Source of the DNA: Candidatus Eiseniibacteriota bacterium
Lineage (GTDB): Bacteria > Orphanbacterota > Orphanbacteria > Orphanbacterales > Orphanbacteraceae
Assembly: GCA_043809585.1 (NCBI GenBank)
Contig: JBDROZ010000070.1
Location: 15,122 to 79,121 of the forward strand
DNA: 64,000 nucleotides
Direction: 5' to 3'
The notes below the pieces were generated by a model, which was given only the letters and a program-made list of their open reading frames with translations, was not told where the DNA came from and did no database searches. Each line of letters starts with the position of its first letter. Position 1 is the first letter of the stretch. The position numbers and the translations under genes are program-made. Shown here piece after piece: positions 3,336 through 58,282 of this stretch.

Positions 3336-4217
3336 CTACCGCCCGATCTTGCCGCACTCCCCGGCGTTTCGGAGAGGCGATCCCTCCGAGAGACGGTATT
3401 CGGGCCCATCCTCGAAGGCGGGATCGACGGTCTTCTTGCTCCCGTCCGCGGGCGCTTCGATCCCTTCCGCGGCGCCGACATCGGCCCCCTTGTTCTGCCA
3501 GAATCCGTTGCATTGCAGCGTGGGCAGCTGTTGGTCGTTCAGCACGCCGACCACCGACAGGCCGAGCTGGTAGGCGAAGAGGTTCCCTTCCAGGAGCGCG
3601 GCGGAGCCGAAGAGGCCGACGGCGCTCCCCAGTTTCTCGGCGTTGTTCCCGATGAACGTGTTGTTCCGGATCGTGGGGCTGTTGTTCTGGGCGTAGATGC
3701 CGCCCCCGCTTGCGGTGGCGATGCAGTTCTTGAACAAGTTCCCCTCGATCGTCGCCTTCGACTTGGGCGCGAGGTAGATGCCACCCCCCCACGGAGACCG
3801 GCACTCCTCGAGGATGTTGTTCCGGATCACCGGATCCGCGCCACTGCCGATCCGGATTCCGCCGCCGAATTGGGTGTCGTAACCGTTCCGAACCGTGAAG
3901 CCCTCGAAAACGGTGCTCTCGTTGCAGAGGCGGAGCCAAACGACCAGGATTCCCGACTGGCCGCCGTCGAGGATCGTCTTTTCCGGACCCTCGACGCTCT
4001 TGATCACCAGGTTCTTCTTGGTGACGTAGACGAGGGCGCGCTCGTAGACGCCCGGATGCACCAGCACCGTATCCCCGTCTTTGGCGAGATTCTCCACTGT
4101 CTGTTTCAGTTGCTCCGAGTCGGCGGATCCCCCTTCGCCGACGTGCCACGTCTTCGCGAAGCCGGCCGCGGGAATCATCAATGCCAAGGTCCAAGCGATC
4201 ACGACGAACCGTCTCAT
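3336..4217 (-). CDS. Secreted right-handed parallel beta-helix repeat protein (pectin-lyase fold)
   Basis: Signal peptide (MRRFVVIAWTLALMIPAAGFA), repeated GGGI / NN-xG-N beta-helix repeat units (IRNNILEE, IEGNLFKNC, IRNNTFIGN); start chosen at ATG 4217 with a GGAGGG SD. Confidence 0.5.
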   Translation of the reverse strand: MRRFVVIAWTLALMIPAAGFAKTWHVGEGGSADSEQLKQTVENLAKDGDTVLVHPGVYERALVYVTKKNLVIKSVEGPEKTILDGGQSGILVVWLRLCNESTVFEGFTVRNGYDTQFGGGIRIGSGADPVIRNNILEECRSPWGGGIYLAPKSKATIEGNLFKNCIATASGGGIYAQNNSPTIRNNTFIGNNAEKLGSAVGLFGSAALLEGNLFAYQLGLSVVGVLNDQQLPTLQCNGFWQNKGADVGAAEGIEAPADGSKKTVDPAFEDGPEYRLSEGSPLRNAGECGKIGR

Positions 4218-4474
4218 GAAACCCTCCTGATCGTTACCGGGGCGGCCGGGCCGCCCCACCGCCGACCGTGTCTCTCGAGAAACGAAGTATCGACTTTCGT
4301 CCCCATCTGTTCAAGAGATGCGCAGATTCTCGCGGTCCGCGAGAGGTCCGTGCATCTCGCCCGGCCCATCGCTCCCCAAGGGGCGACGGGGCGGGATCGT
4401 TCCGGAAGGAAAGGCATATCATTCAATATAACAATAGGTTGTGGGCAGTTCAAATCTTGAACTTCTTCCGCTCT

Positions 4475-4517: not shown

Positions 4518-6350
4518 ATGGGACATCGGACAACCGGATTTCACATCCGGGCGCTCGCCGTGTCGTTTCTGCTCCTCCTCGGCTCCGGGAACGGCGCGGT
4601 CGCATCGATCGTCATAATCACCCCCGAGGGGGGAAAAGGCTCCCTCGAGGAGGCGGAAACGGCGCTCCGGGAAGCGGGGGGCGAGGTGTGCCACCGATTC
4701 CCGGGAGAAGGCCTGATCGCCGACCTCTTCCCGGGAGAGATCGACGCCCTCGCCGGGCGCCTCTCCGGCGAATGGCGCGTGGACGACGGCCTTTCCGTGC
4801 CCGAGTCTCCGCTCCGGCGCCGGGCGGAATCCCTCTACGGCCCTCCCCGGAAGGGAAGGGGCCCGGCGTCGGGGCGGCCTCTTTCCGGGGACGCCTTCGA
4901 GCCCCCCCGGCGGTCCGGGAAGGGGGGGGAGGAGCCGGGTTTCTGGGACGGCAGCGAGTACCTTCTCGGCGACGTGGGCGTCGCCGTCTTTTTCCTCGAG
5001 TCGAACGGCGCGATCGACCCCTCGATCGAGGATTGGACCGGCGCGGAACGTCTTCACGTGCAGGCGAGGATGGTGGAAGCGACGGAGTGGTGGCGGAGCC
5101 GGGCGCCCGAGGGTTTTCTCCGGTTCACCTACGAGTTCCGCGATTCCGTGCCCGTCCCGTACGAGCCGATCGCGAGGCCCCAGGGGGACGAGGAGCTCTG
5201 GATCCGCGAGGCCCTCGCCTCTTTCGGCTTCTCGAGCGGGGACCGGTTCAGCCGGACCCAGAGTTATCTGAACGACATGAAGGCGCGCCTCGGCCTGGAC
5301 TGGGCGTTCGCCGTGTACGTCATCGACTCGTCGGAAGACGAGGACGGCATGTTCTCCGACGGTTACTTCGCCTACGCCTACGTGGGGGGACCCTTCGCCG
5401 TGCTCACCCTCGACAACGATGGCTGGGGGACGGAGAACTTCGCGTCCGTCTTCGCCCACGAGATGGGCCACGTCTTTTACGCCCTCGATCAGTACGCCGC
5501 CGCCCGGGTCCCCTGCGACCGCGCGTCGGGTTATCTCGGCGCGCCGACGGCGAACAGCCAGTACGGCGGCTGTCCCGAGAGCGAGCCGAATTGCCTCATG
5601 AGGAGCACGCACCTGGACGTGGCCGTGCTCAGCGAGACCGCCCGCGCCCAGGTGGGGTGGCTCGACGACGACGGGAACGGCGTTCCCGACGCCGTCGATC
5701 ACGATCCGTCCCTGTCGGCGGACGCCGTCACCCGGGGGGACACGGTGGAGGTGACGGGGGAGGCGGCGGTGGTCCCCGCGCCGAACCGGAATCCCCTCGG
5801 CTACGGCAACGACCTGTCGGTGTCGACCCTCGTCGCCGTCGAATACCGGACCCCGGGGGCCGAGTGGCGGGACGTCCCCGGCGCGGTCTCGGGGAAACCT
5901 TCCGCATCGGCCCGGTTCGTCCTCCCGATCCCCGCGGGCGAAGCGGAGGAGGGCAGGGTCGAACTCCGCGCCCGGGACTCGGCGGGACTCTACTCCCCGT
6001 CGTCGTCGGTCGCCTTCTCCGGCGGCGGGGAGAAAGACCCGGCCGCCGGCGGCACGGCGGAGACTCCGCCGGGTCCGGTCCGGATTCTCGGCAACCGCCC
6101 GAACCCGTTCAACCCGTCGACGGAGTTCCACCTGAGCCTGGAGGAAGCGGTCCGGGTCCGTCTCGAGATCTACGACACGCGGGGCGTTCTCGTGTGCCGG
6201 CTCGTCGACGACATCCTGACACCGGGAGAGACGGCGGTCTCGTGGGACGGGCGGGACTCGCGGGGGAGGACCGCGCCGAGCGGGCGGTACTTCTTCCGGG
6301 TCCTCGCCGGCGGCGAGTCCCGGGCCCTCCCGATCACGCTCCTCCGCTGA
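4518..6350 (+). CDS. Secreted zinc metallopeptidase (HExxH) with C-terminal T9SS-type / FlgD-Ig-like sorting domain
   Basis: N-terminal signal peptide and AHEMGHVFYALDQY zinc-binding motif. The C-terminal ~85 aa (NRPNPFNPSTEFHLSL...RLEIYDTRGVLV...VSWDGRDSRGRTAPSGRYFFRVLAGG) matches the Por_Secre_tail/FlgD-Ig consensus. Confidence 0.6.
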   Translation: MGHRTTGFHIRALAVSFLLLLGSGNGAVASIVIITPEGGKGSLEEAETALREAGGEVCHRFPGEGLIADLFPGEIDALAGRLSGEWRVDDGLSVPESPLRRRAESLYGPPRKGRGPASGRPLSGDAFEPPRRSGKGGEEPGFWDGSEYLLGDVGVAVFFLESNGAIDPSIEDWTGAERLHVQARMVEATEWWRSRAPEGFLRFTYEFRDSVPVPYEPIARPQGDEELWIREALASFGFSSGDRFSRTQSYLNDMKARLGLDWAFAVYVIDSSEDEDGMFSDGYFAYAYVGGPFAVLTLDNDGWGTENFASVFAHEMGHVFYALDQYAAARVPCDRASGYLGAPTANSQYGGCPESEPNCLMRSTHLDVAVLSETARAQVGWLDDDGNGVPDAVDHDPSLSADAVTRGDTVEVTGEAAVVPAPNRNPLGYGNDLSVSTLVAVEYRTPGAEWRDVPGAVSGKPSASARFVLPIPAGEAEEGRVELRARDSAGLYSPSSSVAFSGGGEKDPAAGGTAETPPGPVRILGNRPNPFNPSTEFHLSLEEAVRVRLEIYDTRGVLVCRLVDDILTPGETAVSWDGRDSRGRTAPSGRYFFRVLAGGESRALPITLLR

Positions 6351-6482
6351 CCTTGAACCTGTTGTCTCGCAGCCGGTTGTCTGCTGTCGCTCCTTCCGGG
6401 ATCTTGGTTGACACCGGGCGGAACGAGTGGTAGTCTGCAAACCCGGATCGACCGTGGAACCAGACACCCCGGGGGGACTCTC

Positions 6483-7364
6483 ATGCGCATTTCCGCGCCA
6501 TCCATCGCGCTTGTCATGGCCGCTCTCACCCTCTCCTGCGGTGTGCTCGGTGGGGGTGAGAAGTACGAGGACGCGACACTCGCCGACGCCATGAGCGGTG
6601 CGGCCCCGAGCAAGACGGACACCTACCGGCTCGCTTCGCCGGAGGTGATCGCCGTGAAAGGGGGCTTCGCCCTCCTGAAGGACGGGCGGACGATCCAGAT
6701 CCTCGCGGCGGACCGGCTCTACCGGTACTGGCCCGACCTGGAGGGCCGGGAATTCCACCTCCTCGTCAAGAAGTGGCCGAATCCGTTTCCCCATCTCCGG
6801 CTGGACGGCTACGAGCTGAACGGGGAGCGGATCGACACGCAGTGGGTGATCGCCGAGTCCGAGCTTCCGCTCCTGGTCGACCACCGCCTGTACGACACGT
6901 CGTTCTACGAGAAGAGCGACGTGACGGGTTGGGCGAAGACCGTCCCCCGGGACGTGGTGGACAAGAAGATCTGGGTGAACGGGGGTGTCGAGTCGATCCC
7001 CGGGATCGAGGTCGCCGAGAAGGAAGAGGCGGCGCCGGCGGGGGCGATCGACATGGCCGAAGGGGAGGAGGCGGTGGAGGACACCGAGGTGGCCCGCGGA
7101 GTGTCCGCCTACGACGCGGACCGGGGACCAAGCGACGTCTACTTCATCCTCGTGGGAGGGAAGAAGCTCGAGTTGCTTCCCATGGAGGAGGACGGCGTCA
7201 TGCTCCTTCTCGAAGGGCACGAGGCGGAGGGGCGCGCATTCGGCATCGGCGGATACATCACGGAGCTCTACCCGAAGCGCGAGGCGGAAAAGAGCGGAGT
7301 GACCGGCCGGTTTCAACTCGAAGTGTTCGACTTCGGCGGCAAGTACGTGCTGCTCCGAAATTAG
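6483..7364 (+). CDS. Hypothetical lipoprotein
   Basis: MRISAPSIALVMAALTLSCG signal peptide with lipobox-like LSCG; no recognisable catalytic motif; start placed at internal ATG 6483. Confidence 0.45.
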   Translation: MRISAPSIALVMAALTLSCGVLGGGEKYEDATLADAMSGAAPSKTDTYRLASPEVIAVKGGFALLKDGRTIQILAADRLYRYWPDLEGREFHLLVKKWPNPFPHLRLDGYELNGERIDTQWVIAESELPLLVDHRLYDTSFYEKSDVTGWAKTVPRDVVDKKIWVNGGVESIPGIEVAEKEEAAPAGAIDMAEGEEAVEDTEVARGVSAYDADRGPSDVYFILVGGKKLELLPMEEDGVMLLLEGHEAEGRAFGIGGYITELYPKREAEKSGVTGRFQLEVFDFGGKYVLLRN

Positions 7365-7699
7365 TTTCGATCTTTCAAGAGCCTCACACGTAGTGGGCCA
7401 ACTCGGGGAGCCGGGGGGTTAGGGTTCCGCGGCGAGTTCCGCAGCGCGCCGGCCTCACCTCGTGTGCCGGGACCCCTCGATGCCCGGGCCGGCGCGCGAG
7501 GACTGTTCGAGCAGGCCAGCCCTGATCCTCTGGCTCCCGCCCACCGAATTCAGGGACGCAGTTTCTGCAAGATCGAGGTTAGTTTCGGTATCGCCGAATA
7601 GATCCGGGCGCCCTTTTTCTCGGGGATCGTTGCCGCTCTCACCCCCGCGGCCGGCAACCCGATTGACACGTCCGGGCCCCCTGGTTATGGTGAGGCATC

Positions 7700-8662
7700 A
7701 TGAAGAGATTCCTCCCGCCCTTCACCCTTTTCACGATCATCTTCGCCGCACCGGCCGCCGCTTTCGAAGCGGGGCTTCTTCCGCTGGGGTCCTATTCGGC
7801 CTCCGGTTACGCCATGGGGAACGCGGTCGTCGCCCTCCCCGCCCGGGAGAGCAATGTCTGGACGAACCCGGCCGGACTCGCCTACCAAGAAGGGTATCTC
7901 TTCTACGCCGCGCCCCACGACGAGGTGACCGGCGTGACCGACGACTGGCGGGAGCGGGTCTTCGCGGCGAACGGCCTTCGGGGTCTCGGCGGCGTCTTCG
8001 GCGCGGCCCTCGTCCTCCGGCAGCAACAGAACGCCGCTGTCGGCGATCCGATTGTGCCGGCGGACATCGACGAGCCGACCCTTCTTGTCGGATACGGGCG
8101 GCGGATCGGCGCGAAGTACGCCGTGGGCGCGACGGTGCTGGGCTATCGGCACCGGTCGGACCTGGACACCCTGGATGGCGACATCACGGGCGGCGTCACC
8201 CTCGGCATGCTCCGCGTGTGGGACCATGTCCACCGGAACGACCTTCCCCTGCAGTGGCGCTGGGCACTCGCGCTCCAAAACTTCGGGCCTTCTTTCGACG
8301 TGGGGACCACGAAGACCGATCTCCCCCTCGCCCTCCGTTCGGGACTCTCGACGCGGTGGGAGAAGGAGCCGGGGACGTCGATCGTTTTCTCGGGCGACAT
8401 GCACTGGCTCCCCCGGGAGGAAGGGAACGAGAATCCCCGCATCGGCGGCGGCGTCGGCGGCGAGTTGAAGCTGAGCGGCGTGGTCGCCGTTCGGCTCGGA
8501 TACCTCTGGGACGCCGATTCGGAGCGGGCCGACGTCACCTACGGTTTCGGGATCGGCAACGAAGTGTACGGCAACATCGGCGGCATGCTCGAGTACGCCC
8601 ACGCCCCCGGACCGGTCGATTTCGCCGACCACATCGGCCTCAAGGTCTACTGGATTCCGTAG
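7700..8662 (+). CDS. Outer-membrane beta-barrel protein, PorV/FadL/TraF-like
   Basis: Signal peptide MKRFLPPFTLFTIIFAAPAAA. The N-terminal GYAMGNAVVALPARESNVWTNPAGLA resembles the GMGGAF..AD.AIYWNPAGLA motif of the PorV/FadL-like barrel family. Alternating amphipathic strands run to the C-terminus. A TTGACA-N17-TATGGT sigma-70-like promoter lies at 7655-7684. Confidence 0.45.
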   Translation: MKRFLPPFTLFTIIFAAPAAAFEAGLLPLGSYSASGYAMGNAVVALPARESNVWTNPAGLAYQEGYLFYAAPHDEVTGVTDDWRERVFAANGLRGLGGVFGAALVLRQQQNAAVGDPIVPADIDEPTLLVGYGRRIGAKYAVGATVLGYRHRSDLDTLDGDITGGVTLGMLRVWDHVHRNDLPLQWRWALALQNFGPSFDVGTTKTDLPLALRSGLSTRWEKEPGTSIVFSGDMHWLPREEGNENPRIGGGVGGELKLSGVVAVRLGYLWDADSERADVTYGFGIGNEVYGNIGGMLEYAHAPGPVDFADHIGLKVYWIP

Positions 8663-8839
8663 GCGATAGCAGACGGGGCGGACCCCGCTCGCTCCGAAGA
8701 TCCCGGCCTTGGATCGGCCACTCGCCGAGAGTCTGTCTTGGAATGGCCCGTTCATCCCTCTCTCCCCCCTTGCCCCTCGCCCCGTTCACGGTTATGCTCG
8801 CGGCGAACCCCGATTTCCGATCCCCGAACGAGGCGCGCC

Positions 8840-9694
8840 ATGCGGATCCCCTTCACCAAAGTCCAGGCCCTCCGGAACGACTTCGTCCTCGTCGACGGCC
8901 GCCGCGTACCCGTGCCCGATCCCGCCCGCCTCGCCAAAATCCTCTGCGACCGGAAGAGCGGCGTCGGCGCCGACACCCTTCTCGTCCTTCATCATTCCGA
9001 CCACGCCAACGTTCTCGTCCGCATCTTCAATCCCGACGGAAGCGAAGGGGAGATGTCCGGGAACGGCACCCGTTGCGTCGCCATGTACATCCTGGATCGC
9101 GGAGAAGGGGGGGGCGGATCGGCCTCCGTCGAAACCGTCGCGGGCGTCTCCCGTCACGATGTCGAAGAGCGCGCGGGCCGCCGCCTCCGGATCGTCTCGC
9201 GGATTCTCGCGCCCCGCTTCCAGCCGGACCTCGTCCCCGTCCGGTGGGAGGGGGACGAGGCGATCGACATCGACATCCCCCTTCGGGATCGCTCCGTCCG
9301 TGTGTCGTGCGTGAACATCGGCAACCCCCAAGCGGTCGTCCTCGACGGATGGGACGAGAAGAACTGGCGCGAACTGGGCCCCCAGATCGAGCGGCACCCG
9401 ATTTTCCCCGAGCGGGCGAACGTCGACTTCGCGCGCGTCGTGGCCGAGGGCCGGATCGAGGTTAGGCTCTGGGAACGGGGCGTGGGCCCCGTCGAAGCCT
9501 CGGGGACCGGCGCGTCGGGCGCGTTCACCGTGGCCCGCCGGAAAGGCCTGGTCGGTCCCCGGGTGCGGGTCGCCATGGAGGGGGGCGATCTCGACCTGGA
9601 GGAGCGGCATGACGGTCTTCTCCTCCGGGGTTGGTGCGAAGAGGTGTTCGAAGGGACCGCGTCGATCGAGTATCCCCTCATGGAGAAGAAGTGA
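8840..9694 (+). CDS. dapF: Diaminopimelate epimerase
   Basis: MRIPFTKVQALRNDFVLVD N-terminus and GNGTRC active-site Cys motif (SGNGTRCVAMY) characteristic of DapF; start at ATG 8840 inside the longer ORF. Confidence 0.8.
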   Translation: MRIPFTKVQALRNDFVLVDGRRVPVPDPARLAKILCDRKSGVGADTLLVLHHSDHANVLVRIFNPDGSEGEMSGNGTRCVAMYILDRGEGGGGSASVETVAGVSRHDVEERAGRRLRIVSRILAPRFQPDLVPVRWEGDEAIDIDIPLRDRSVRVSCVNIGNPQAVVLDGWDEKNWRELGPQIERHPIFPERANVDFARVVAEGRIEVRLWERGVGPVEASGTGASGAFTVARRKGLVGPRVRVAMEGGDLDLEERHDGLLLRGWCEEVFEGTASIEYPLMEKK

Positions 9695-9705
9695 AACACC
9701 GCGCC

Positions 9706-11247
9706 ATGCTTCTCGCGTGGGCCCTCGCGCTCCTCCTCGCCATCCCCGCGGGGGCGGACGAGGGGGGGCGCTTCTCGATCGACCTCGCCGAGAGGCACGA
9801 TATCCGGTTCCTCGGCGAGGATGAGGAGGACGAGATGGGTGTCCAGGTCCGCTTCGGGGACCTCGACGGCGATGGGTACGACGACGTGATCCTCGGCGCC
9901 TGGCTCGCCGACGGTCCGCGCAACCAGAGGGCCCGGTGCGGCGAGGTGTATGTCTACTTCGGCGGGGTCGTGGAGAAGAAGGGAGCGGCCTCCCTCGGCG
10001 CTTCGGTGATCTACGGCGCCGAGGCGAAAAGCCGGATCGGCTCCGCGGCGGACACGGGAGACTACGACGGAGACGGTGTCACCGACCTCCTGATCGGCGC
10101 CCGTTACTCCGACGGACCCGCCGACTCCCTCCGCCTCCGCTCCGGCGAGGCCTTCCTCCTGCTCGGCGGCTCCGACGGCTCGGCGAAACGCGTCGTCGAC
10201 CTTCGCCGCCATCCCGACGCGGTCATCGTGGGGCGCTTCGAGGGGGACCGGCTCGGGCGCCGCATCGTCGTGGAGGATCTCGACCGGGACGGCAAGGACG
10301 ACCTCCTCGTCGCCGCCGTGGGATCGGCCGGACGGGACACGGAGCGCCGCGACGCGGGGGCGGTCTACGTGATCTACGGCTCCCGCCGGGCCGACCTCGA
10401 GGGCCGCTTGGACCTTTCCCTCGCCGAGACTCCGGCCCTCCACGGCGCGGACGAATCGGACGCCCTCGGGAACGCCATGACCGTCGGCGATTGGAACGGC
10501 GACGACCTTCCCGATCTCTTCCTCGGATGCGGTTTCGCCGACGGGCCCGCCAACGGCCGGACCAACGGGGGGGAGGTCTTCGTCCTCTTCGGCGACGGCC
10601 TCCGCTTCCAAGGGGAACGGGTGGTCGAGGAGGGAACGGACTTCACCATCTACGGGGCCGAGCCGTACGACGGCGCGGGCATCGCGATCGCCGCCGGCGA
10701 CTTCGACGGCGACGGCTTGGACGACATCGCCGTGGGCGCGAGCCTCGGCGACGGTCCGGACAACTCCCGGGACAACTGCGGCGAAGTGTATCTCCTCTTC
10801 GGAGGCACGGGGACCCGCCCCGGCGACTCGATCGACCTCGCCGCGGGGGCGGACATCACATTCTTCGGCGTCGCCCCGGGGGACCAGCTCGGATCGGTTC
10901 TCCATCTCTTCGACTGGAACGGGGACGGCTACCAAGACCTGATCGTCTCCTCCCTCCTCCACGACGGACCAGGCGGCCGGCGCGTGGACGCCGGCATGGT
11001 GTACGCCACCCTCGGCGGGCGACAGTCGGCGCTCCGGCCCTTCATCGATTATGCCGGGGAGGAGGCGAATCTAATGCTCCTCGGGCCCACCCGGGGGGAC
11101 AAGATCGCGACTCTCCTCGAGGACGGGCTCATCGACGGAGCGGCGCGGCTGATCGCGGGCACCATGCTCGGCGACGGTCCGAACGACGAGCGGCGGGACT
11201 CGGGGGAGATCTACCTTCTCCCGTGGAAGCCGGGGGCGGAAGATTGA
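9706..11247 (+). CDS. Secreted FG-GAP (integrin-alpha beta-propeller) repeat protein
   Basis: Signal peptide MLLAWALALLLAIPAGA followed by ~7 repeats of the D-x-D/N-G-DG-x-DD...G-A..DG motif (DLDGDGYDDVILGAWLADGP, DYDGDGVTDLLIGARYSDGP, DFDGDGLDDIAVGASLGDGP etc.). Confidence 0.6.
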   Translation: MLLAWALALLLAIPAGADEGGRFSIDLAERHDIRFLGEDEEDEMGVQVRFGDLDGDGYDDVILGAWLADGPRNQRARCGEVYVYFGGVVEKKGAASLGASVIYGAEAKSRIGSAADTGDYDGDGVTDLLIGARYSDGPADSLRLRSGEAFLLLGGSDGSAKRVVDLRRHPDAVIVGRFEGDRLGRRIVVEDLDRDGKDDLLVAAVGSAGRDTERRDAGAVYVIYGSRRADLEGRLDLSLAETPALHGADESDALGNAMTVGDWNGDDLPDLFLGCGFADGPANGRTNGGEVFVLFGDGLRFQGERVVEEGTDFTIYGAEPYDGAGIAIAAGDFDGDGLDDIAVGASLGDGPDNSRDNCGEVYLLFGGTGTRPGDSIDLAAGADITFFGVAPGDQLGSVLHLFDWNGDGYQDLIVSSLLHDGPGGRRVDAGMVYATLGGRQSALRPFIDYAGEEANLMLLGPTRGDKIATLLEDGLIDGAARLIAGTMLGDGPNDERRDSGEIYLLPWKPGAED

Positions 11248-13277
11248 GCCCGTCCCCCGCGAGCATCGATCCGGAATCTCCGGTCCACTTTCTCCCCGGC
11301 ATCGGCCCGGCCCGTTCCGAGGATCTCGCGACGAGGGGGATCGCCACGGTCGGAGACCTCCTCCGCCTCTTTCCGCGGGAGTACATCCTTCCGGGGGAGC
11401 GGCGAAAGGTCGCCGAGGTCTCCGAAGGGGAAACGGCGGTTCTCGACGTCCGCCTCGAATCGATCCGGCTGCTCCGGCGGGGCTGGCGGCGGTCGGTGGT
11501 CGATGCGCGCGTCGCGGACGAGACCGGTTCCGCCCGCTGCCTCTGGTTCCACGCCGCCTATCTCGCCAAGTCCTTGAAGCCCGGCGCCCGGCTCCTCCTC
11601 AAGGGATCCCTCGGCGGGAAGCCGCCCGCCTTCCTCCATCCCCGATTCGAGGTGGTGCGGGACGGGGAGGAGTCCGAGTTCGAGCGGATCGTCTCAAGGT
11701 ACCCCTCCATTCCCCGGCTCCCTCCGCGCACGCTCCGGCGGGCGATCCGGTACGCCCTCGAACGGCTGCCGGCCGGGGAGGACCCCCTCCCGGAGGACCT
11801 TCGTGCGAAGCACGGCCTGCCCGAGTGGACCGAGTCCCTCCGGTCCGTGCACCGTCCCGAGGGGCCGGAGGAAGCCGCCCGGGCGAGGCGCCGCTTCGTC
11901 TTCGAAGAGCTCTACCGCCTGCAGTCCGCATTCGCCGCCGCGACCCGGTCCCGCGCGGAGGCGCGCGCCCCCCACGCCCATCCGGAACCGGGCCGGTTCT
12001 ACGAGCCCTTCTTGAAAGGTCTCCCGTTTCGCCTCACCGGGGATCAGGAGAGGAGCCTCCGGGAGATCCGGGCCGATCTCGAGTCGGGCCGTCCCATGGA
12101 GAGGCTTCTCGTGGGCGACGTCGGATCGGGAAAGACCGTCGTCGCCGCCGCCGCCATGGCGTGGGCCGCCGGGCACGGCGGGCAGGCGGCGCTCCTCGCG
12201 CCGACGGAAGTGCTCGCGCGCCAGCACCACCGCGTGCTCGAGGCCGCCTTCGGCCCCCTCGGCGCGAGTCCGGCCCTCCTGACGGGCGACCTCCCCGCGG
12301 CGGAGGCGCGGCGGGTGCGTGAGAGGATCGCTTCGGGAGAGGAACTCCTCGTCGTCGGCACCCACGCGCTCCTCCAGGAAACGACACGCTTTCATGATCT
12401 CGCCCTCGCGGTCGTCGACGAGCAGCACCGCTTCGGGGTGAGGCAGCGGGGCATTCTCCCCGGGAAAGGGGACAAGGCCCACTTCCTTCTTCTCTCGGCG
12501 ACTCCCATCCCTCGTTCCCTCGCCCTCACCTTGTACGGCGATCTCGACCTCTCCGTCATCAAGACGCTCCCGCCGGGGCGAAAGCCGGTGGAGACGAAGC
12601 GGGTGGCGGACAAGGGGGCGAAGGAGGCGTACGAGCGGCTGCGGGAGCGGGTGGACGCCGGGGAGCAGGGGTTCGTTCTCTTCCCCCTCGTCGAGGAAGA
12701 CGAGGCGGAGGACGCGCCCGAGGGTCCGAAGGCGGCGGTGCAGGCGGCGGACAAGCTCGCGAGGGGGTTCTTCCGGGGCCGCTCCGTGGGACTCCTGCAC
12801 GGGCGTCTTCCCGCGCCGGAACGGATCGAAACGATCGACAGGCTGCGACGGGGAGAGATCGACGTTCTCGTCGCCACCACGGTGGTCGAAGTGGGCGTCG
12901 ATCTCCCCCGGGCGACGGTGATGATCATCGAGAACGCCGACCGGTTCGGTCTCTCCCAGCTTCACCAGATCCGCGGCCGCGTCGGGAGGAGCGATCTCCC
13001 TTCGTGGTGTTACCTCGTGACGCGCGGACCGTTCACGCCCCAGGCGGAGGAACGCCTCGCCGTCCTCGAATCGGAGCGGGACGGCTTCCGGATCGCCGAG
13101 GAGGACCTCCGGCTCCGGGGCACGGGGGACCTTCTCGGGGAGCGGCAGCACGGACCTCTCGGCCTCGGCGCGGCGGACCTGATCCGCGACGCCGATCTGC
13201 TCGAGATCGCGCGGGCCGAGGCTTTCGCCCGCGGCCCCTCGGAGGGCCCCCTTCCCCGCCCTCCCCGGGCCGGATGA
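11244..13277 (+). CDS. recG: ATP-dependent DNA helicase RecG
   Basis: Wedge-domain N-terminus (LPGIGPARSEDLATRGIATVGDLLRLFPREY), Walker A GDVGSGKTVVA, DExH (VVDEQHRFG) and helicase C-terminal motifs. Likely TTG start at 11244 overlapping the upstream stop; the upstream 430 aa of ORF 9936..13277 are an alternative frame of the FG-GAP gene. Confidence 0.8.
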   Translation: MSPSPASIDPESPVHFLPGIGPARSEDLATRGIATVGDLLRLFPREYILPGERRKVAEVSEGETAVLDVRLESIRLLRRGWRRSVVDARVADETGSARCLWFHAAYLAKSLKPGARLLLKGSLGGKPPAFLHPRFEVVRDGEESEFERIVSRYPSIPRLPPRTLRRAIRYALERLPAGEDPLPEDLRAKHGLPEWTESLRSVHRPEGPEEAARARRRFVFEELYRLQSAFAAATRSRAEARAPHAHPEPGRFYEPFLKGLPFRLTGDQERSLREIRADLESGRPMERLLVGDVGSGKTVVAAAAMAWAAGHGGQAALLAPTEVLARQHHRVLEAAFGPLGASPALLTGDLPAAEARRVRERIASGEELLVVGTHALLQETTRFHDLALAVVDEQHRFGVRQRGILPGKGDKAHFLLLSATPIPRSLALTLYGDLDLSVIKTLPPGRKPVETKRVADKGAKEAYERLRERVDAGEQGFVLFPLVEEDEAEDAPEGPKAAVQAADKLARGFFRGRSVGLLHGRLPAPERIETIDRLRRGEIDVLVATTVVEVGVDLPRATVMIIENADRFGLSQLHQIRGRVGRSDLPSWCYLVTRGPFTPQAEERLAVLESERDGFRIAEEDLRLRGTGDLLGERQHGPLGLGAADLIRDADLLEIARAEAFARGPSEGPLPRPPRAG

Positions 13278-13406
13278 TCGAGTGGTTCTCCTTGACCGGT
13301 CGGTTCCGATCCCCTACGCTCCGAGGGTTGGCGGACGCTCCCACCGTCTCATCTCTCTGTCATCCATCCGTTCCCCGGTGGGATTCGCGGCCGGAAAGGC
13401 GGACCC

Positions 13407-13820
13407 ATGGCGACGGAGAAGATAGTCAAGTGCCGTGTCCGGCGACCCGACGTGTCGGACGCACCCTCCAGCCCGCGCTTCGTCCCCCTCGACATCTTCA
13501 ACCTCTGGAAGTTCCTGATGGAAGAGCGGCACCGGTTCGAGGTGTTCGGCCCGAAAGCGTCCCTCTGGTTCGAGCGGGGGGCGGCGACCGAGTCGAGCTA
13601 TGTGGGCATCGAGTACGAGCCGGTGACGCAGGTGGAGCTCTTCTACTTCGCCGAAGAGGACGACATGCTCCACCAGGAGGTCCGCTACTTCCCCTCCGGC
13701 GACGAGGAAGAGTACGACCACATCAAACACGCCTTCACCGCCCACTACCGCAACCACAAGACCCGCGGCGACGGCGATCCGAAGCTGAACGAAAACCCCG
13801 GCGTCTTCATAAAACGATAA
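13407..13820 (+). CDS. Hypothetical acidic protein (137 aa)
   Basis: Clean ORF with ATG, no recognisable motif; somewhat lower GC than its surroundings; convergent with the S8 protease gene. Confidence 0.35.
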   Translation: MATEKIVKCRVRRPDVSDAPSSPRFVPLDIFNLWKFLMEERHRFEVFGPKASLWFERGAATESSYVGIEYEPVTQVELFYFAEEDDMLHQEVRYFPSGDEEEYDHIKHAFTAHYRNHKTRGDGDPKLNENPGVFIKR

Positions 13821-13823
13821 AGG

Positions 13824-16442
13824 CTATCGCAGCAGAGTCAACCTCTGGGTGAGTACCTCCGTCCCCTTCGTGAGGCGGGCGAAGTAAACGCCGGAGGCGA
13901 CCTCTTCCCCCCCGGGCCCCGTGCCGTCCCAGATCTCTTCGTACGAACCGGCGGAGAGGGTCTCGTTCAGGAGAACCCGGACCCGGCGGCCTTGGAGCGA
14001 GTAGATCTCGAGGGTCACCGGCGACGGTTCGGGGAGGTCGAACCGGAGGTGGGTGATCGGATTGAACGGGTTCGGCCGCGCCGGGTGGAGCCGGAAGAGT
14101 GCCGGGACGTCCCCTCCGATCGGCACGGCGGTGGCCCCGCCGCCGGTCGCGGCGCTCGAGGCGGCGCCGGGCGAGTAGTTGTGGAAGCGGTCGTAGGCGA
14201 ACGCGGCGTAGTGATAGCGCGTGCCGGGGAAAAGCCCCCGGTCCGTGAGCGTCGATCCGCCCGACGTGTCGACGACGACGAGATCGCCCGGGAGCGGATC
14301 GCCCGCCGCATAGGTCTCGCCGTCGTCCGGCCCCCACATGACGGCGGCCGAGCTCCGGACGAGAAGGACGCCCGCCCCGTCCGCCTCGTCCGGCGGCGCC
14401 CAGAGGAGGCCGATGGTCGTGTCGTCCACCGTAGTCGCCTCGAGAGAGTCGGGCGGGTCCGGAGCCCGTGTGTCGATGCCGACGAGGGAGAAGGTCTGAC
14501 TCGTCCCGACAGGCACGTTTCCGCCCGTGACCCGGGCGGTCCATGTCCCTTCCTGGGGAGAGAGGGCCACGACCTGTTCCACGTTGTTCAGGTGATCGAC
14601 GCCGGTCACGGCCGACGCCGCCGGGTTGGACGGGTCGAGCACGGATGGGTACGCGGGGGGGGCCGTCGGCGGTAGGAGCAAGAGGTCGAGATCGTTCACG
14701 AGGGCCGGATTCGCGAGGGGGGTTCCGGCCGGGTCGTCCCAAACCAGGGTGACCTTCAGCTCCGGGAATCCGGCGGGTACCGGGAACGTCCACTCCCGGA
14801 CGCCGCCGTCGGAGACGCTGTCCTCGATCACCGTGGCGAACCGGACGCGATCGGCCGCACGCTTCACGTTCATCCGCCCGTAGCCGAACCGGTAGTCCGG
14901 TCCCGGGTTGCCGAGGTCGTCCGCCGTCCCGAGGAGCAGGGCCTTCAGCGTCGAGGGCCACGGCGGACTCCCGACGGCCCCCCACGTCTCGAGGAGGAGG
15001 GCCACGGCCCCCGAGACGGCCGGAGTCGCCATCGACGTCCCGCAGTAGTAGGCCGAACCGTAGGTGTCGCCGGACCAGGTCGACCAGATCGAGTAGTTGT
15101 AGTTCGACTGGCAGCCGCCGGCGACGATGTCCGGCTTCACCCGGCCGTCGTCCACGGGGCCGTATCCGGAGAACGTGGTCATGGACGAGTTGTTCGTGTT
15201 GACGGCGCCGACGGTGATCACGTTCTTCGCCGTCCCCGGCGGGGGAACGCAGGCGTATCCGCTCCGGGCGGCGATCCCGCAGTCGCCGTCGTTCCGCTCG
15301 TTCCCCGCGGCGACGACGATGGGGATCCGCTTTCCGAAGTAGCCCGCCACCACGGCGTCGAACTCGGGGGCGTAGCCGTCGTAGTCGCCGTAGAAGTAGC
15401 AGTTGTTCCACGCCGTCTGATCGACGTCGAGCACCCACGAGTTGGACGTGAGGTCCACGTCGTAAGCGGTGATGGCCGACCCGTACTCGCCGGGGATGTC
15501 GCCGTAGTAGTCGTACGAGAGCATCGAGCAGTCCGGCGCGACCCCGCGCCACTGGTTCGGCAGCGCGCCGAACAGGGCGGACCGCGCCCCCGACCCCCCG
15601 AGGGTCCCGGCCACATGGGTGGCGTGATCGGACGTCGGCGCGCCGGTGTCCACCACGAGCAGACGGCCGCCGAAGTCGGAGTGGGCGGCGATGGGGCCGC
15701 CGTCCCAGATGCCCGCCGTCACACCCGATCCGAGGATCGACAGGGGCGCGGCATGGACCGAATCGACGTTGCCGTTCTCCCGGATGCCGTCGTTCGCCGG
15801 CACCGGGGGGGGAAGGGGGGCCCCGATCCAGAGGACCTCGTCTTTCGCGGCGAGTGAGTCGAGGGCCGTCACCGGGAGGTTCGCGTCGAACCCGTGGAAG
15901 ACGGTCCTCCCGAGAACCGGAGTCCCCCCGGCCCGGGAGATGATGGTCGCCCCCTCGTAGAGGTCCACGTCCTCGTGAAACCGGACCCGGAGGGGAATGG
16001 CCCCCGCTTTCTTCCCGAGCGCCTCTTCCGCGACGGCCGGCGCGATCTTCGCCTTCACCGGGATCGTTCCGACCCAGCGGATCTCCTCGGGAGGGAGGGC
16101 GGCCCAGTCCGCCCCGCCATCCACGGAGACGATCCACGTGTCCCGGGGGAGATAGGCGAGCAGCGAGAACCCGGCCCGCCGGAGGCGGTCCCGGTCCGGT
16201 TTCGTGTGGAACTGGAAGAGCAGCCGCCGGTTCCCCTCCGAAGCGAGCCTCCGCCCCTCGGCGGCGGCTTCGGGCAGGCTCGCCGGGGTCATCGTCCCCG
16301 CCCCCTTCCATTGGATCCGGTAACTGGGCGGGGGGGAGGCGCTTCCGGGGGGCGTGGGGTCCTCCGGGTTCCTCCCCACGGCGGCGGCCGCGAGGAGGAC
16401 GAGAAAGACCACGGAAAACCCGGCGAGCCTCGCAGAATGCAC
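13824..16442 (-). CDS. Secreted subtilisin-like serine protease (S8) with C-terminal T9SS-type / FlgD-Ig-like sorting domain
   Basis: Subtilase catalytic motifs (VVDTG... Asp, HATHVAGT... His, GTSMATPAVSGA... Ser) and a C-terminal PNPFNPITHLRFDLP...LEIYSLQGRRV...GSYEEIWDG...SGVYFARL sorting domain. GTG start at 16442 precedes the signal peptide VHSARLAGFSVVFLVLLAAAAVG. Confidence 0.75.
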   Translation of the reverse strand: MHSARLAGFSVVFLVLLAAAAVGRNPEDPTPPGSASPPPSYRIQWKGAGTMTPASLPEAAAEGRRLASEGNRRLLFQFHTKPDRDRLRRAGFSLLAYLPRDTWIVSVDGGADWAALPPEEIRWVGTIPVKAKIAPAVAEEALGKKAGAIPLRVRFHEDVDLYEGATIISRAGGTPVLGRTVFHGFDANLPVTALDSLAAKDEVLWIGAPLPPPVPANDGIRENGNVDSVHAAPLSILGSGVTAGIWDGGPIAAHSDFGGRLLVVDTGAPTSDHATHVAGTLGGSGARSALFGALPNQWRGVAPDCSMLSYDYYGDIPGEYGSAITAYDVDLTSNSWVLDVDQTAWNNCYFYGDYDGYAPEFDAVVAGYFGKRIPIVVAAGNERNDGDCGIAARSGYACVPPPGTAKNVITVGAVNTNNSSMTTFSGYGPVDDGRVKPDIVAGGCQSNYNYSIWSTWSGDTYGSAYYCGTSMATPAVSGAVALLLETWGAVGSPPWPSTLKALLLGTADDLGNPGPDYRFGYGRMNVKRAADRVRFATVIEDSVSDGGVREWTFPVPAGFPELKVTLVWDDPAGTPLANPALVNDLDLLLLPPTAPPAYPSVLDPSNPAASAVTGVDHLNNVEQVVALSPQEGTWTARVTGGNVPVGTSQTFSLVGIDTRAPDPPDSLEATTVDDTTIGLLWAPPDEADGAGVLLVRSSAAVMWGPDDGETYAAGDPLPGDLVVVDTSGGSTLTDRGLFPGTRYHYAAFAYDRFHNYSPGAASSAATGGGATAVPIGGDVPALFRLHPARPNPFNPITHLRFDLPEPSPVTLEIYSLQGRRVRVLLNETLSAGSYEEIWDGTGPGGEEVASGVYFARLTKGTEVLTQRLTLLR

Positions 16443-16591: not shown

Positions 16592-16650
16592 CCTGATTTT
16601 GAACTCCCAACTTGCAAGGTTTGCGCCGAACGCGATCGGAGGCTTTGAAC

Positions 16651-17892
16651 ATGGTGGTTTTCAACTACAGCGGCAAAGAGATCAACGCGAAGATCGTTTA
16701 CTACGGGCCGGGGCTTTCGGGAAAGACCACGAACCTCGAGCGGATCTACGGTCACGTGCCGGAGCAGCGCCGGGGGAAGATGGTCTCCATGAAGACCCGG
16801 AGCGACCGGACCCTATTCTTCGACTTCCTCCCCGTGAACGCCGGGGAGATCCGCGGGTTCCGAACCCGATTCCTCCTCTACACCGTTCCGGGTCAGGTCC
16901 ACTACAACGCGACCCGGAAGCTGGTCCTGAAGGGGACGGACGCGATCATCTTCGTCGCCGATTCCGATCCCGCCCTCCGGCAGGCGAACATCGAGAGTAT
17001 GCAGAACCTCGAACAGAATCTCGCCGAATACCAGCTCTCGGTCGAGAAGATCCCCGTGATCCTCCAGTTCAACAAGCGGGACCTGCCGAACGCCCTCACG
17101 CCGGAGGAACTGAACGGGGACCTGAACCGTCACGGGTGGCCCTGGTTCCAGGCGGTGGCCGTGAGCAACGAGGGCGTGTGGGAGACGTTCCGGGCCGCCA
17201 CGCGGGCGCTCTTCGAGAGCCTGGAGCGCACCCTCGGCGGCGAAGAGAAGGGGAAGAAGAGAGCGGGGGGGACCCCGGCCCCCGCCGAACCGGAAACCGC
17301 GAAGAAAGAGAAAGCCCCGGCGGATCCGCGGTTCCAGCCGAGCGCGCCGGTCTACGACGTGGGGGGCACGGTGGACGACGTGGTTCGCCTCTCCGACTCG
17401 CTGAAGTCGTGGAGCGCGGACGTCGCCGCCGGGCCCGAAAAGACGGACGATGCGGTCCCGGCCGCCGGGCCCGCCGAACGGGGGGAGGCGAGGGATGGCC
17501 GCTGGGAAGACCCGCTTGCGGGCGAGGGGCGCGCTCTGGGGGGAATCGACGATGGCGGGGGCAACGATCTTCCGGCGAAGCCGGCCCCACCCGCGGAGCT
17601 CGTCCCTTCCGACGATCCTGTTCCGCTGGCCGAGGGGACTTCCCCGGGGGATGGGGAGCGGAGCTCGACCCCGGGGGTCGAGGTAGCGGCCGCTCCCGAG
17701 CCGCGGCCCGCCGCGCCGGCCCGAGCGCCGGACGGCGTGGTTCGGGTCCCGGTCGAGATCGACGCGGGGAGCGGCCGGGTTCGGCTGGAAATCGCCCTCG
17801 AGATCCGTTTTGTCTCCTCCGACGCCCCGAAAGCGGCGGAACCGGAGGGGGAGCCGGCGGGCTCCCTTGACCACGAACCGGCCTGGTCGTAG
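16651..17892 (+). CDS. mglA: MglA-like Ras-family small GTPase with ~215-aa low-complexity C-terminal extension
   Basis: MVVFNYSGKEINAKIVYYGPGLSGKTTNLERIY...TRSDRTLFFDFLPVNAGEIRGFRTRFLLYTVPGQVHYNATRKLVLKGTDAIIFVADS...ILQFNKRDLPNA aligns almost position-by-position with Myxococcus MglA (P-loop, switch regions, NKxD). After ~residue 200 comes a Pro/Ala/Glu/Gly-rich tail that continues to the stop at 17892. Confidence 0.75.
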   Translation: MVVFNYSGKEINAKIVYYGPGLSGKTTNLERIYGHVPEQRRGKMVSMKTRSDRTLFFDFLPVNAGEIRGFRTRFLLYTVPGQVHYNATRKLVLKGTDAIIFVADSDPALRQANIESMQNLEQNLAEYQLSVEKIPVILQFNKRDLPNALTPEELNGDLNRHGWPWFQAVAVSNEGVWETFRAATRALFESLERTLGGEEKGKKRAGGTPAPAEPETAKKEKAPADPRFQPSAPVYDVGGTVDDVVRLSDSLKSWSADVAAGPEKTDDAVPAAGPAERGEARDGRWEDPLAGEGRALGGIDDGGGNDLPAKPAPPAELVPSDDPVPLAEGTSPGDGERSSTPGVEVAAAPEPRPAAPARAPDGVVRVPVEIDAGSGRVRLEIALEIRFVSSDAPKAAEPEGEPAGSLDHEPAWS

Positions 17893-51596: not shown

Positions 51597-51606
51597 GTCC
51601 TATCCT

Positions 51607-53876
<2,270 letters not shown>

Positions 53877-53887
<11 letters not shown>

Positions 53888-54980: not shown

Positions 54981-55004
54981 CTCCCGATCCCGTCCCGCTC
55001 CGGC

Positions 55005-56123: not shown

Positions 56124-56229
56124 GAATGTCCTCCTGGACACAGAAAGATAGGTCCCGTCGAGGAGCCCGCGGCTCGCGGCTTCCGTACGCGCATTATAGG
56201 AGACCGCCCCGGAACGGGCAAGGGAAAAC

Positions 56230-58255: not shown

Positions 58256-58282
58256 GAATGGTGACTCCTGGGTTATCCTCGC

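What the first reader, a model, noticed from the sequence alone, without database searches (positions are those of the whole stretch)
4518..16442. T9SS-type (Por_Secre_tail / FlgD-Ig-like) C-terminal sorting domains on two proteases plus a PorV-like barrel in a high-GC genome
The HExxH metalloprotease (4518-6350) and the S8 subtilase (13824-16442) both end in the conserved ~80-aa NPFNP...IYD..G..V...G...W.G....G..V.SG.Y sorting domain. An OM barrel with a PorV/FadL-like N-terminal motif (7700-8662) lies between them. This domain is best known from Bacteroidota T9SS cargo. Its presence at ~70% GC suggests a non-Bacteroidota lineage from the Fibrobacteres-Chlorobi-Bacteroidetes (FCB) superphylum, such as Gemmatimonadota-like or a candidate division, using a T9SS-like or analogous export route. 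That route remains poorly characterised outside Bacteroidota.
Basis: partly seen in the sequence, partly recalled or inferred. Interest (0 to 1): 0.5.

Follow-up and report, generated by a model that had tools for sequence, protein, structure and literature searches.

The report
T9SS-type cargo tails in Eisenbacteria
Two secreted proteases in a Candidatus Eisenbacteria genome end in the C-terminal sorting domain that Bacteroidota use for type IX secretion, and a divergent PorV/PorQ-like outer-membrane barrel lies between them; this extends a known system to another related candidate phylum, and the secretion machinery itself was not found.

Summary

Across 155 related CTD proteins from FCB-type lineages, 96% end within 3 residues of the stop.

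No T9SS core gene (SprA, GldK/L/M/N, PorU) was found in the 64-kb window. None was recognised in the limited screens of ~230 kb of Eisenbacteria flanks. The full genome could not be scanned, so use of a T9SS is inferred, not shown. NCBI already labels such proteins "T9SS type A sorting domain-containing" in Eisenbacteria. Verdict: a new member of a known kind, of modest interest.

The parts
4518..6350 (+). Secreted zincin-type metalloprotease (610 aa) of an uncharacterised family. It has a signal peptide (aa 1-30), HEMGH at aa 314-318 (nt 5457-5471) and a C-terminal sorting domain.
   Evidence: GC3-supported ORF and its translation. The motif AHExGHxFYAxDQY...PCDR...C(I/L)MRS is invariant in 4 orthologs. 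The catalytic part has no Pfam, NCBIfam or PDB sequence match.
6075..6347 (+). CTD of the metalloprotease (about 91 aa, ending at the stop codon), of the FlgD_ig / T9SS type-A-like class.
   Evidence: PF13860 scores 32.1 bits against a cutoff of 27. TIGR04183 scores only 13.2 bits against 23, and the CTD part of the PorU model NF033707 scores 25.9 bits. FlgD 3osv is matched at E=1e-3, or 5e-6 with a profile.
6483..7364 (+). Conserved putative lipoprotein (about 293 aa, MRISAPSIALVMAALTLSC...) that always follows the metalloprotease gene. Function unknown; possibly a cognate partner.
   Evidence: Translation. No family hit. An ortholog lies next to the metalloprotease ortholog in L001, L002 and L009.
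7700..8662 (+). Outer-membrane beta-barrel (320 aa, with signal peptide). A divergent, lineage-specific member of the PorV/PorQ family, and a candidate CTD-cargo shuttle.
13824..16442 (-). Secreted S8 subtilase (872 aa from the GTG at 16442), with signal peptide, catalytic domain (nt 14877-15638) and a C-terminal sorting domain.
   Evidence: Peptidase_S8 at 127 bits. The VVDTG, HATHVAG, AAGNE and GTSMATP motifs are present. Orthologs are found in L001, L002, L008 and L009.
13827..14102 (-). CTD of the S8 protease (92 aa, ending at the stop codon). It qualifies as a T9SS type-A sorting domain.

Best explanation
The window comes from a Candidatus Eisenbacteria (Eiseniibacteriota) chromosome. It encodes two extracellular or surface proteases that carry a T9SS-type C-terminal sorting domain.

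Proposed mechanism:
1. Each protease is exported to the periplasm through Sec, using its N-terminal signal peptide.
2. Its ~90-aa C-terminal Ig-like beta-sandwich (signature NPFNP...IYD..G..V...WDG....G....SGxYF...LLR-stop) is recognised at the outer membrane by a type-IX-like translocon.
3. A PorV-family shuttle barrel takes up the cargo.
4. The cargo is then released, or the tail is cleaved and the protein is attached to the surface.

The barrel at 7700-8662 is a divergent, Eisenbacteria-specific member of the PorV/PorQ family. It is the best candidate in the window for a CTD-binding shuttle or anchor.

Shown: domain homology, terminal placement, signal peptides, the predicted fold of both the CTD and the barrel, and the taxon.

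Inferred: that secretion really depends on the tail, that the genome has the SprA/GldKLMN/PorU machinery, and that this particular barrel handles these cargoes.
For: - Taxon: the barrel is 100% identical to NCBI protein ABIK65_09130 of a Ca. Eisenbacteria MAG.
- CTD homology: PF13860 passes for both proteases, and TIGR04183 passes for the S8. Among the closest database relatives of the CTD, most carry PF18962 Por_Secre_tail together with PF13860. NCBI names them 'T9SS type A sorting domain-containing protein', including in Eisenbacteria and KSB1.
- Lineages: the 80 best genomic matches come almost entirely from FCB-type lineages. These are Eisenbacteria, Krumholzibacteria, Latescibacterota, Gemmatimonadota, Zixibacteria, Fibrobacteraceae, Ignavibacteria, Cloacimonadota, KSB1 and Marinimicrobia.
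- Terminal signal behaviour: among 155 unique CTD ORFs, 149 end 0-3 residues before the stop codon, 141 end in R or K, and 137 carry NPF(N/S).
- Other Eisenbacteria CTDs: five of the seven tested pass TIGR04183 at 26-34 bits.
- Fold: the high-confidence CTD model is closest to the PorU CTD, with the mirolase and PorZ CTDs also near the top.
- Barrel: evidence is.
- Classic T9SS cargo architecture in the same lineages: gingipain-R-like proteases with pro-domain, C25 domain, Ig domains and CTD.
- Published mechanism: type A CTDs are Ig-like beta-sandwiches collected by the PorV shuttle, and shuttle genes can be linked to cargo genes (PMC12618676). T9SS has been proposed for several non-Bacteroidota FCB phyla (PMC11285876).
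Against: - No T9SS core component was found in the 64-kb window by Pfam or NCBIfam.
- In about 230 kb of DNA flanking CTD genes in 15 Eisenbacteria loci, no SprA-sized ORF lacking a CTD and no clear PorU were found. That sample is about 5% of one genome. The family scans showed only the top 25 families each, so this absence carries little weight.
- The metalloprotease CTD fails TIGR04183. Neither CTD hits PF18962 at E<=0.01.
- By sequence, the nearest solved relatives of the CTD are FlgD domains.
- The barrel is below the curated family cutoff, is not a PorV or PorQ ortholog, and is annotated 'hypothetical' by NCBI.
- The barrel sits in a housekeeping syntenic block and probably has its own promoter.
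- CTD-cargo plus PorV/PorQ-barrel pairs also exist in Elusimicrobiota, where T9SS is not known.
- No paper in the library links Eisenbacteria and T9SS.
Confidence: 0.6

Rival explanations
1. The CTDs are true sorting tails, but the barrel is not their dedicated shuttle. It lies between them only because this chromosomal block (M50 protease, metalloprotease, lipoprotein, barrel, dapF, FG-GAP, recG, S8) is inherited as a unit. The barrel could be a general PorQ-like or other outer-membrane component, and a canonical PorV would be encoded elsewhere.
For: - The same gene order occurs in L001. In L002-L004 the barrel stays beside dapF while the metalloprotease-lipoprotein pair has moved about 5 kb away.
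- There is a 336-nt gap and a strong sigma70-like site directly upstream of the barrel.
- The barrel HMM found no copy next to any of the other ~150 CTD genes sampled.
- In Bacteroidota all type A cargo share one PorV (PMC12618676).
Against: - No other PorV/PorQ-family barrel was seen in any Eisenbacteria DNA examined.
- The clade is conserved and restricted to this lineage.
- It remains within a few kb of CTD genes in every relative.
Confidence: 0.3
2. The tail and a PorV/PorQ-like barrel form part of a reduced or non-canonical export or surface-anchoring route. That route does not need the canonical SprA/GldKLMN/PorU machinery.
For: - In Elusimicrobiota (not FCB) a bona fide PorV/PorQ_fam barrel (170.8 bits) sits in a conserved three-gene unit directly downstream of a TIGR04183-positive PQQ-propeller protein. 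No core genes lie within 10 kb.
- One CTD protein is labelled as coming from Phycisphaeraceae.
- No core gene was found in anything sampled here.
Against: - The sample is far too small to infer absence.
- The CTD subtype is concentrated in FCB-type lineages, several of which are reported to carry T9SS genes.
- Cargo architectures mirror P. gingivalis gingipains.
- An Eisenbacteria C25 peptidase family with intact His/Cys motifs is as close to PorU as to gingipain, and could be the sortase.
- MAG taxon labels can be wrong (L007 and L009).
Confidence: 0.12
3. The terminal domain is merely a generic FlgD-like Ig module (for stability, adhesion or substrate binding), and the barrel is an unrelated FadL/BamG-type transporter or BAM accessory subunit. 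On this view nothing here relates to type IX secretion.
For: - Pfam assigns both tails to FlgD_ig, and the best PDB sequence matches are FlgD.
Against: - A generic module would not sit at the extreme C-terminus in 96% of 155 proteins of unrelated function, nor end in R or K in 91% of them.
- The S8 tail and five of the seven other Eisenbacteria tails tested pass TIGR04183.
- The barrel has no Pfam hit at all at E<=0.01, including Toluene_X/FadL.
- The barrel hits PorV/PorQ_fam at 1e-17 and PDB PorV by sequence.
- All 77 sequences scanned (the barrel plus its 76 nearest relatives) match PorV/PorQ_fam, and no FadL-type family appears among the 25 families listed.
Confidence: 0.07

Closest known systems
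T9SS type A C-terminal sorting domain (TIGR04183 / PF18962 Por_Secre_tail) of Bacteroidota cargo such as RgpB, mirolase, PorU and PorZ
   Same: - About 80-90 aa Ig-like beta-sandwich at the very C-terminus of Sec-exported hydrolases.
- An N-terminal P-N-P-type strand motif, a central (I/V)YD..G..V motif, a G.Y motif near the end, and a basic last residue.
- The S8 tail passes TIGR04183.
- The modelled fold is closest to the PorU CTD.
   Different: - It belongs to the longer 'FlgD_ig-like' flavour, with an extra W(D/N)G....G....SG loop.
- Pfam files it under PF13860, not PF18962.
- One of the two tails fails TIGR04183.
- The host is a high-GC candidate phylum in which the machinery has not been shown.
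PorV (LptO) and PorQ, the FadL-fold shuttle and anchor barrels of the T9SS (NF033709, NF033710, NF033711; PDB 6H3I chain F)
   Same: - A predicted ~14-stranded barrel with the shared N-terminal motif.
- A full-length match to PorV/PorQ_fam.
- PorV is the best structural and the only meaningful sequence match in the PDB.
- All nearest relatives are PorV/PorQ family members.
   Different: - 320 aa, against about 390-400 aa for PorV.
- Below the family cutoff (64.7 against 90 bits) and far below the PorV cutoff (11.7 against 250 bits).
- The PorQ equivalog model did not appear among hits at E<=1.
- It forms an isolated clade, with only 5 clusters at E<=1e-30 among 1.84 billion representatives.
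- It is not adjacent to a porU gene.
Cargo-linked PorP/SprF shuttle genes of Flavobacterium johnsoniae type B substrates
   Same: An outer-membrane barrel gene lies close to genes for CTD-bearing cargo. This is a published precedent for genetic linkage between shuttle and cargo (PMC12618676).
   Different: - A different barrel family: TIGR03519 was not hit by the window's barrel.
- A different CTD type (type B).
- Here the barrel is not immediately downstream of a cargo gene and seems to have its own promoter.
FadL/TodX transporters and the Bacteroidota BAM subunit BamG
   Different: - No Pfam hit of any kind at E<=0.01, so no Toluene_X/FadL match.
- Sequence relatives are PorV/PorQ, not FadL.
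- BamG's conserved N-terminal extension and its BamA/BamH contacts cannot be assessed here.

Membership tests
T9SS type A sorting domain (TIGR04183 / PF18962) | Scores at or above the curated cutoff of the family model | tested here: inconclusive
   The S8 tail scores 29.4 bits against a cutoff of 23 and passes. The metalloprotease tail scores 13.2 bits and fails. PF18962 is not hit at E<=0.01 by either. PF13860 FlgD_ig passes for both. The closest database relatives mostly carry PF18962 together with PF13860.
T9SS type A sorting domain (TIGR04183 / PF18962) | Located at the extreme C-terminus of a protein that also has an N-terminal Sec signal peptide | tested here: met
   Both tails end at the stop codon. 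Signal peptides were read directly from the sequence, since no predictor was available. Of 155 related ORFs, 149 end 0-3 residues from the stop.
T9SS type A sorting domain (TIGR04183 / PF18962) | Ig-like antiparallel beta-sandwich fold like solved T9SS CTDs | tested here: met
T9SS type A sorting domain (TIGR04183 / PF18962) | Occurs in a genome that encodes the T9SS core (SprA/Sov, PorK/L/M/N = GldK/L/M/N, PorU, PorV) | tested here: inconclusive
   None was found in the 64-kb window. None was recognised in the partial screens of about 230 kb of flanks from 15 Eisenbacteria loci. The rest of the source genome could not be read, and the sample is too small to infer absence.
T9SS type A sorting domain (TIGR04183 / PF18962) | Secretion depends on the tail, and the tail is removed by PorU | not testable with these tools
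   This needs experiment. Gly/Ala/Ser/Pro-rich linkers precede both tails, which is compatible with cleavage but not evidence of it.
PorV/PorQ family (NF033709) | Scores at or above the curated cutoff (90 bits) | tested here: not met
   64.7 bits, E=1.1e-17, covering model positions 11-307 of 326. This is significant homology but below the membership cutoff.
PorV/PorQ family (NF033709) | 14-stranded FadL-fold outer-membrane barrel closest to PorV | tested here: met
PorV/PorQ family (NF033709) | Nearest sequence relatives are family members | tested here: met
   All 77 members scanned (the barrel plus 76 nearest representatives) match NF033709. Of these, 72 also match PorV and 71 match PorQ.
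PorV ortholog (NF033710) / PorQ ortholog (NF033711) | Equivalog-level score; gene next to porU (for PorV) or functionally paired with PorZ (for PorQ) | tested here: not met
   NF033710 scores 11.7 bits against 250. NF033711 was not reported at E<=1. No PorU or PorZ is present in the window.
Peptidase S8 (subtilase) | Family HMM above cutoff, and Asp/His/Ser catalytic motifs present | tested here: met
   PF00082 scores 127.1 bits against 21.8. VVDTG, HATHVAG, AAGNE and GTSMATP are present.
Zincin / metzincin-like metalloprotease | Conserved HExxH with a third ligand and a Met-turn; match to a described family | tested here: inconclusive
   AHExGHxFYAxD and C(I/L)MRS are invariant in 4 orthologs. 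There is no Pfam, NCBIfam or PDB sequence match for the catalytic part.
FadL / Toluene_X / BamG | Sequence match to the FadL-type family models | tested here: not met

The most novel reading that the evidence does not exclude
Eisenbacteria, and independently Elusimicrobiota, may use the type-A-like tail together with a lineage-specific PorV/PorQ-family barrel in a pared-down or differently built outer-membrane export or anchoring route. That route would lack some or all of the canonical SprA/GldKLMN/PorU machinery. If so, the CTD-barrel recognition module would be older and more widespread than the T9SS itself.
Probability: 0.1. Interest if true: 0.65.

Novelty: new member of a known kind. Interest (0 to 1): 0.28.

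Why it matters
It adds Candidatus Eisenbacteria to the non-Bacteroidota lineages whose secreted hydrolases carry T9SS-type sorting tails. It assigns a protein that NCBI calls 'hypothetical' to a divergent, lineage-restricted branch of the PorV/PorQ shuttle family. This helps predict the extracellular proteome of an uncultured phylum, including proteases, gingipain-like enzymes and FG-GAP proteins.

The practical gain is modest. Routine NCBI annotation already labels these tails as T9SS type A domains. T9SS has already been proposed for several sister phyla. The real open question, whether these lineages have the full machinery or a variant of it, was not settled here.

Tried and rejected
1. 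Source contig: I tried to find it by exact protein look-up, but it is not in the gene-position index.

2. PorU hunt, none confirmed:
- The large protein next to an Elusimicrobia PorV/PorQ barrel is not PorU.
- Seven large Eisenbacteria CTD proteins matched NF033707 only through their CTD.
- A Peptidase_C25 fragment cluster in L089 turned out to be a gingipain-R homolog, i.e. cargo.
- The L043-type (Eisenbacteria), L082 (Krumholzibacteria) and L061 (Fibrobacteraceae) C25 proteins are also gingipain-like.
- The L064-type family is ambiguous: RgpB at 1.4e-6 against PorU at 1.3e-5.

3. SprA hunt by size: no ORF of 1,300 aa or more without a CTD looked like SprA.

4. Bulk NCBIfam scans of 52 flank ORFs in alignment mode were swamped by housekeeping families, because only 25 families are displayed. 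They are uninformative.

5. The two 391-aa unknowns beside the barrel in L002 have no family hit, and are unrelated to each other and to the 391-aa gene upstream of the CTD cluster.

6. BamG and FadL as the barrel's identity: rejected on sequence evidence.

It was repeated with 4 sequences.

8. Literature searches for T9SS in Eisenbacteria or sister candidate phyla found nothing specific.

9. Rfam and tRNA scans of the window found nothing.
Full report
**What is in the sequence.** GC3 frame analysis of this ~67-70% GC window supports a run of genes:
- a beta-helix protein (3336-4259, -)
- an HExxH protein (4518-6350, +)
- a ~293-aa putative lipoprotein (6483-7364, +)
- a 320-aa protein with a signal peptide (7700-8662, +)
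- dapF (8738-9694, +)
- an FG-GAP protein (9631-11247, +)
- recG (ending at 13277, +)
- a small ORF (13407-13820, +)
- an S8 peptidase on the minus strand (13824-16442; the ORF is open to 16664)
- a Ras/Arf-like GTPase (16612-17892, +)

These assignments rest. The rest of the window carries housekeeping genes, including the replication-origin cluster of gyrA, gyrB, recF, dnaN, dnaA, rnpA, yidC and mnmE.

Both proteases end in a ~90-aa domain that passes Pfam FlgD_ig (32.1 and 31.1 bits against 27). The two tails align without gaps at 39% identity, and both stop at ...TLLR. A six-frame HMM scan finds only these two copies in the window. The S8 tail passes the T9SS type-A model TIGR04183 (29.4 against 23 bits). 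The metalloprotease tail does not (13.2 bits), although it matches the CTD portion of the PorU model at 25.9 bits. Both proteins have plausible Sec signal peptides. The S8 catalytic motifs are intact. The metalloprotease motif AHExGHxFYAxDQY...C(I/L)MRS is invariant in four orthologs, but its catalytic part matches no described family and no solved structure by sequence.

**The tail behaves as a terminal signal, not a generic Ig module.** An alignment of tails from the window and its relatives retrieved 7,651 significant hits among 8,000 scored candidates. Most carry PF18962 Por_Secre_tail together with PF13860. NCBI names them 'T9SS type A sorting domain-containing protein', including in Eisenbacteria and KSB1.

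A scan of one genome per species returned 260 confirmed matches. The best 80 come from Eisenbacteria, Krumholzibacteria, Latescibacterota, Gemmatimonadota, Zixibacteria, GN15, Fibrobacteraceae, Ignavibacteria, Cloacimonadota, KSB1, Balneolales and Marinimicrobia. In those loci I found 155 unique CTD-bearing ORFs of very different sizes and functions:
- 149 end 0-3 residues before the stop codon
- 141 end in R or K
- 137 carry NPF(N/S)

Five of the seven other Eisenbacteria tails tested pass TIGR04183 at 26-34 bits.

**The barrel.** The 320-aa protein matches the NCBIfam PorV/PorQ family model over almost its whole length (E=1.1e-17). At 64.7 bits it falls below the 90-bit cutoff. It does not reach the PorV equivalog (11.7 against 250 bits). 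It has no Pfam hit at E<=0.01.

In an exhaustive profile search of 1.84 billion representatives, the Eisenbacteria-type barrel is an isolated clade. Only 5 clusters score at E<=1e-30, and 364 hits score at E<=1e-3. I scanned the barrel together with 76 of its nearest relatives. All 77 match PorV/PorQ_fam, 72 also match PorV and 71 match PorQ. I therefore treat it as a divergent, lineage-specific offshoot of the PorV/PorQ family. It is not a certified member and not a PorV ortholog.

**Organism and context.** The barrel is 100% identical to a 'hypothetical protein' (ABIK65_09130) of a Candidatus Eisenbacteria MAG, on a 163-kb contig. NCBI taxonomy lists Eiseniibacteriota among unplaced candidate phyla. 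A phylogenomic study treats Eisenbacteria as the closest relative of Joyebacterota, which was described as a phylum within the FCB superphylum.

The local gene order is conserved in a 76%-identical relative (L001). In a 54%-identical relative (L002-L004) it is rearranged. There the barrel stays next to dapF, and the metalloprotease-lipoprotein pair lies about 5 kb away among additional CTD genes. A 336-nt gap and a strong sigma70-like site (7663-7691) precede the barrel. So the barrel's position between the two cargo genes is inherited synteny rather than a tight cargo-barrel operon.

**The machinery question, which I could not settle.** No T9SS core gene is in the window; the weak PorW and PorE hits are generic TPR matches. 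I sampled about 230 kb around CTD genes in 15 Eisenbacteria loci.
- There is no SprA-sized ORF lacking a CTD.
- Seven large CTD proteins match the PorU model only through their CTD.
- Bulk family scans of the flank genes showed only housekeeping families, because of the display limit.
- A local C25-domain probe found many C25 peptidases. The ~1,300-aa Eisenbacteria family is a gingipain homolog with a pro-domain match, as are a Krumholzibacteria ORF, a Fibrobacteraceae ORF and a frameshifted gene in L089. All of these are cargo with the classic T9SS architecture.
- A ~1,650-aa Eisenbacteria family keeps the His/Cys motifs and is equally distant from gingipain R (1.4e-6) and PorU (1.3e-5).

This sample is about 5% of one genome, so finding no core gene carries little weight either way.

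**A caution from outside the FCB group.** The most PorV-like distant relative of the barrel, P0013, passes PorV/PorQ_fam at 170.8 bits. It belongs to a large Elusimicrobiota family. There it forms a conserved unit of a giant surface protein, a PQQ-propeller with a TIGR04183-positive tail, and the barrel. No T9SS core gene lies within 10 kb. A CTD plus a PorV/PorQ-type barrel is therefore not by itself proof of a complete T9SS.

[quoted passage not shown] No paper in the library links it to Eisenbacteria. In Bacteroidota, type A CTDs are Ig-like sandwiches collected from the SprA translocon by PorV. Type B cargo use cognate PorP/SprF shuttles that are often encoded next to them (PMC12618676). 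The tails here are the longer 'FlgD_ig-like' flavour of type A.

**Verdict.** The T9SS interpretation is the most likely one, but it rests on homology of cargo signal and barrel, not on the machinery. This is a new member of a known kind: type-IX-style cargo tails in another FCB-allied candidate phylum, already flagged by routine annotation, plus a newly recognisable divergent PorV/PorQ-like barrel. Interest is modest at 0.28. The most novel reading still open is a CTD-barrel route that works without the canonical core. I give it about 10% probability.

Noticed in passing
window 49140-63984: The window contains the chromosomal replication-origin gene cluster: gyrA, gyrB, recF, dnaN and dnaA on the minus strand, then rnpA, yidC and mnmE on the plus strand. 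Cumulative GC skew reaches its minimum near 54-56 kb. The dnaA-rnpA intergenic region (58283-58970) is a likely oriC location.
   Followed up: partly
window 4518-7364; L001:6987-9881; L002:15624-18547; L009:10204-12553: The metalloprotease belongs to an uncharacterised family with no Pfam, NCBIfam or PDB sequence match. The motif AHExGHxFYAxDQY...PCDR...C(I/L)MRS and three Cys residues are invariant. Its gene is always adjacent to a conserved ~300-aa putative lipoprotein, which could be an inhibitor, chaperone or anchor.
   Followed up: partly
L005:3158-7893; L087:1-11512; L088:1-11512: In Elusimicrobiota (not FCB) there is a conserved three-gene unit: a giant ~4,500-aa surface protein, a PQQ beta-propeller with a TIGR04183-positive tail, and a 503-aa bona fide PorV/PorQ-family barrel. 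No T9SS core genes lie within 10 kb. Only two papers in the library mention both T9SS and Elusimicrobia, and the one I read does not describe T9SS in that phylum.
   Followed up: partly
L043:6308-19393 (also L041, L067, L070): Eisenbacteria share a conserved tandem cluster of four CTD proteins. These are a ~1,300-aa gingipain-R-like C25 protease with a pro-domain, then proteins of ~560, ~940 and ~1,460 aa, the last with a NosD-like beta-helix. The cluster lies downstream of conserved ~360-, ~495- and ~391-aa genes. One member of the scanned set that included two of them matched poly-gamma-glutamate synthase PgsB, but which member was not determined.
   Followed up: partly
L064:5243-10276; L046:5372-10276; L042:1215-6047 and L042:5876-10864: A ~1,650-aa Eisenbacteria protein family has a signal peptide, a C25-like domain that retains the VGHGY and AINCS catalytic motifs, FG-GAP/Fn3-like regions and a CTD. 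It is equally distant from gingipain R and the PorU sortase, so it is a possible PorU analogue. L042 carries a tandem pair.
   Followed up: partly
L090:5775-12947 (NCBI assembly GCA_003152875.1, contig PMBF01000023.1): Two ~720-745-aa multihaem cytochromes with MtrC/MtrF-like domains carry FlgD_ig plus Por_Secre_tail tails. This suggests that extracellular electron-transfer cytochromes are exported by the same tail-dependent route in some uncultured lineage.
   Followed up: no
L007 (CAWBQK010000011.1) and L009 (JAGUYC010000333.1): These MAG contigs are labelled 'Candidatus Latescibacteria' and 'Gemmatimonadetes'. They nevertheless carry orthologs of the window's S8 protease and barrel (L009 also the metalloprotease and lipoprotein) in the same neighbourhood, and their S8 CTDs are 88% and 66% identical to the window's. 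Their taxon labels are probably wrong or outdated. L006/L007 also shows many frameshift-fragmented genes, which is typical of uncorrected long-read assembly.
   Followed up: partly
window 16612-17892: A 426-aa protein with an N-terminal Ras/Arf-like small-GTPase domain is divergently transcribed from the S8 protease gene. It is conserved at that position in relatives (L001, L006). Its function is unknown.
   Followed up: no
window 7663-7691: A near-consensus sigma70-type promoter-like site (TTGACA-17-TATGGT, 10 of 12 matches; 2 sites found in the region against 0.2 expected) ends only 9 nt before the barrel's ATG. This would imply a leaderless or very short-leader transcript.
   Followed up: no
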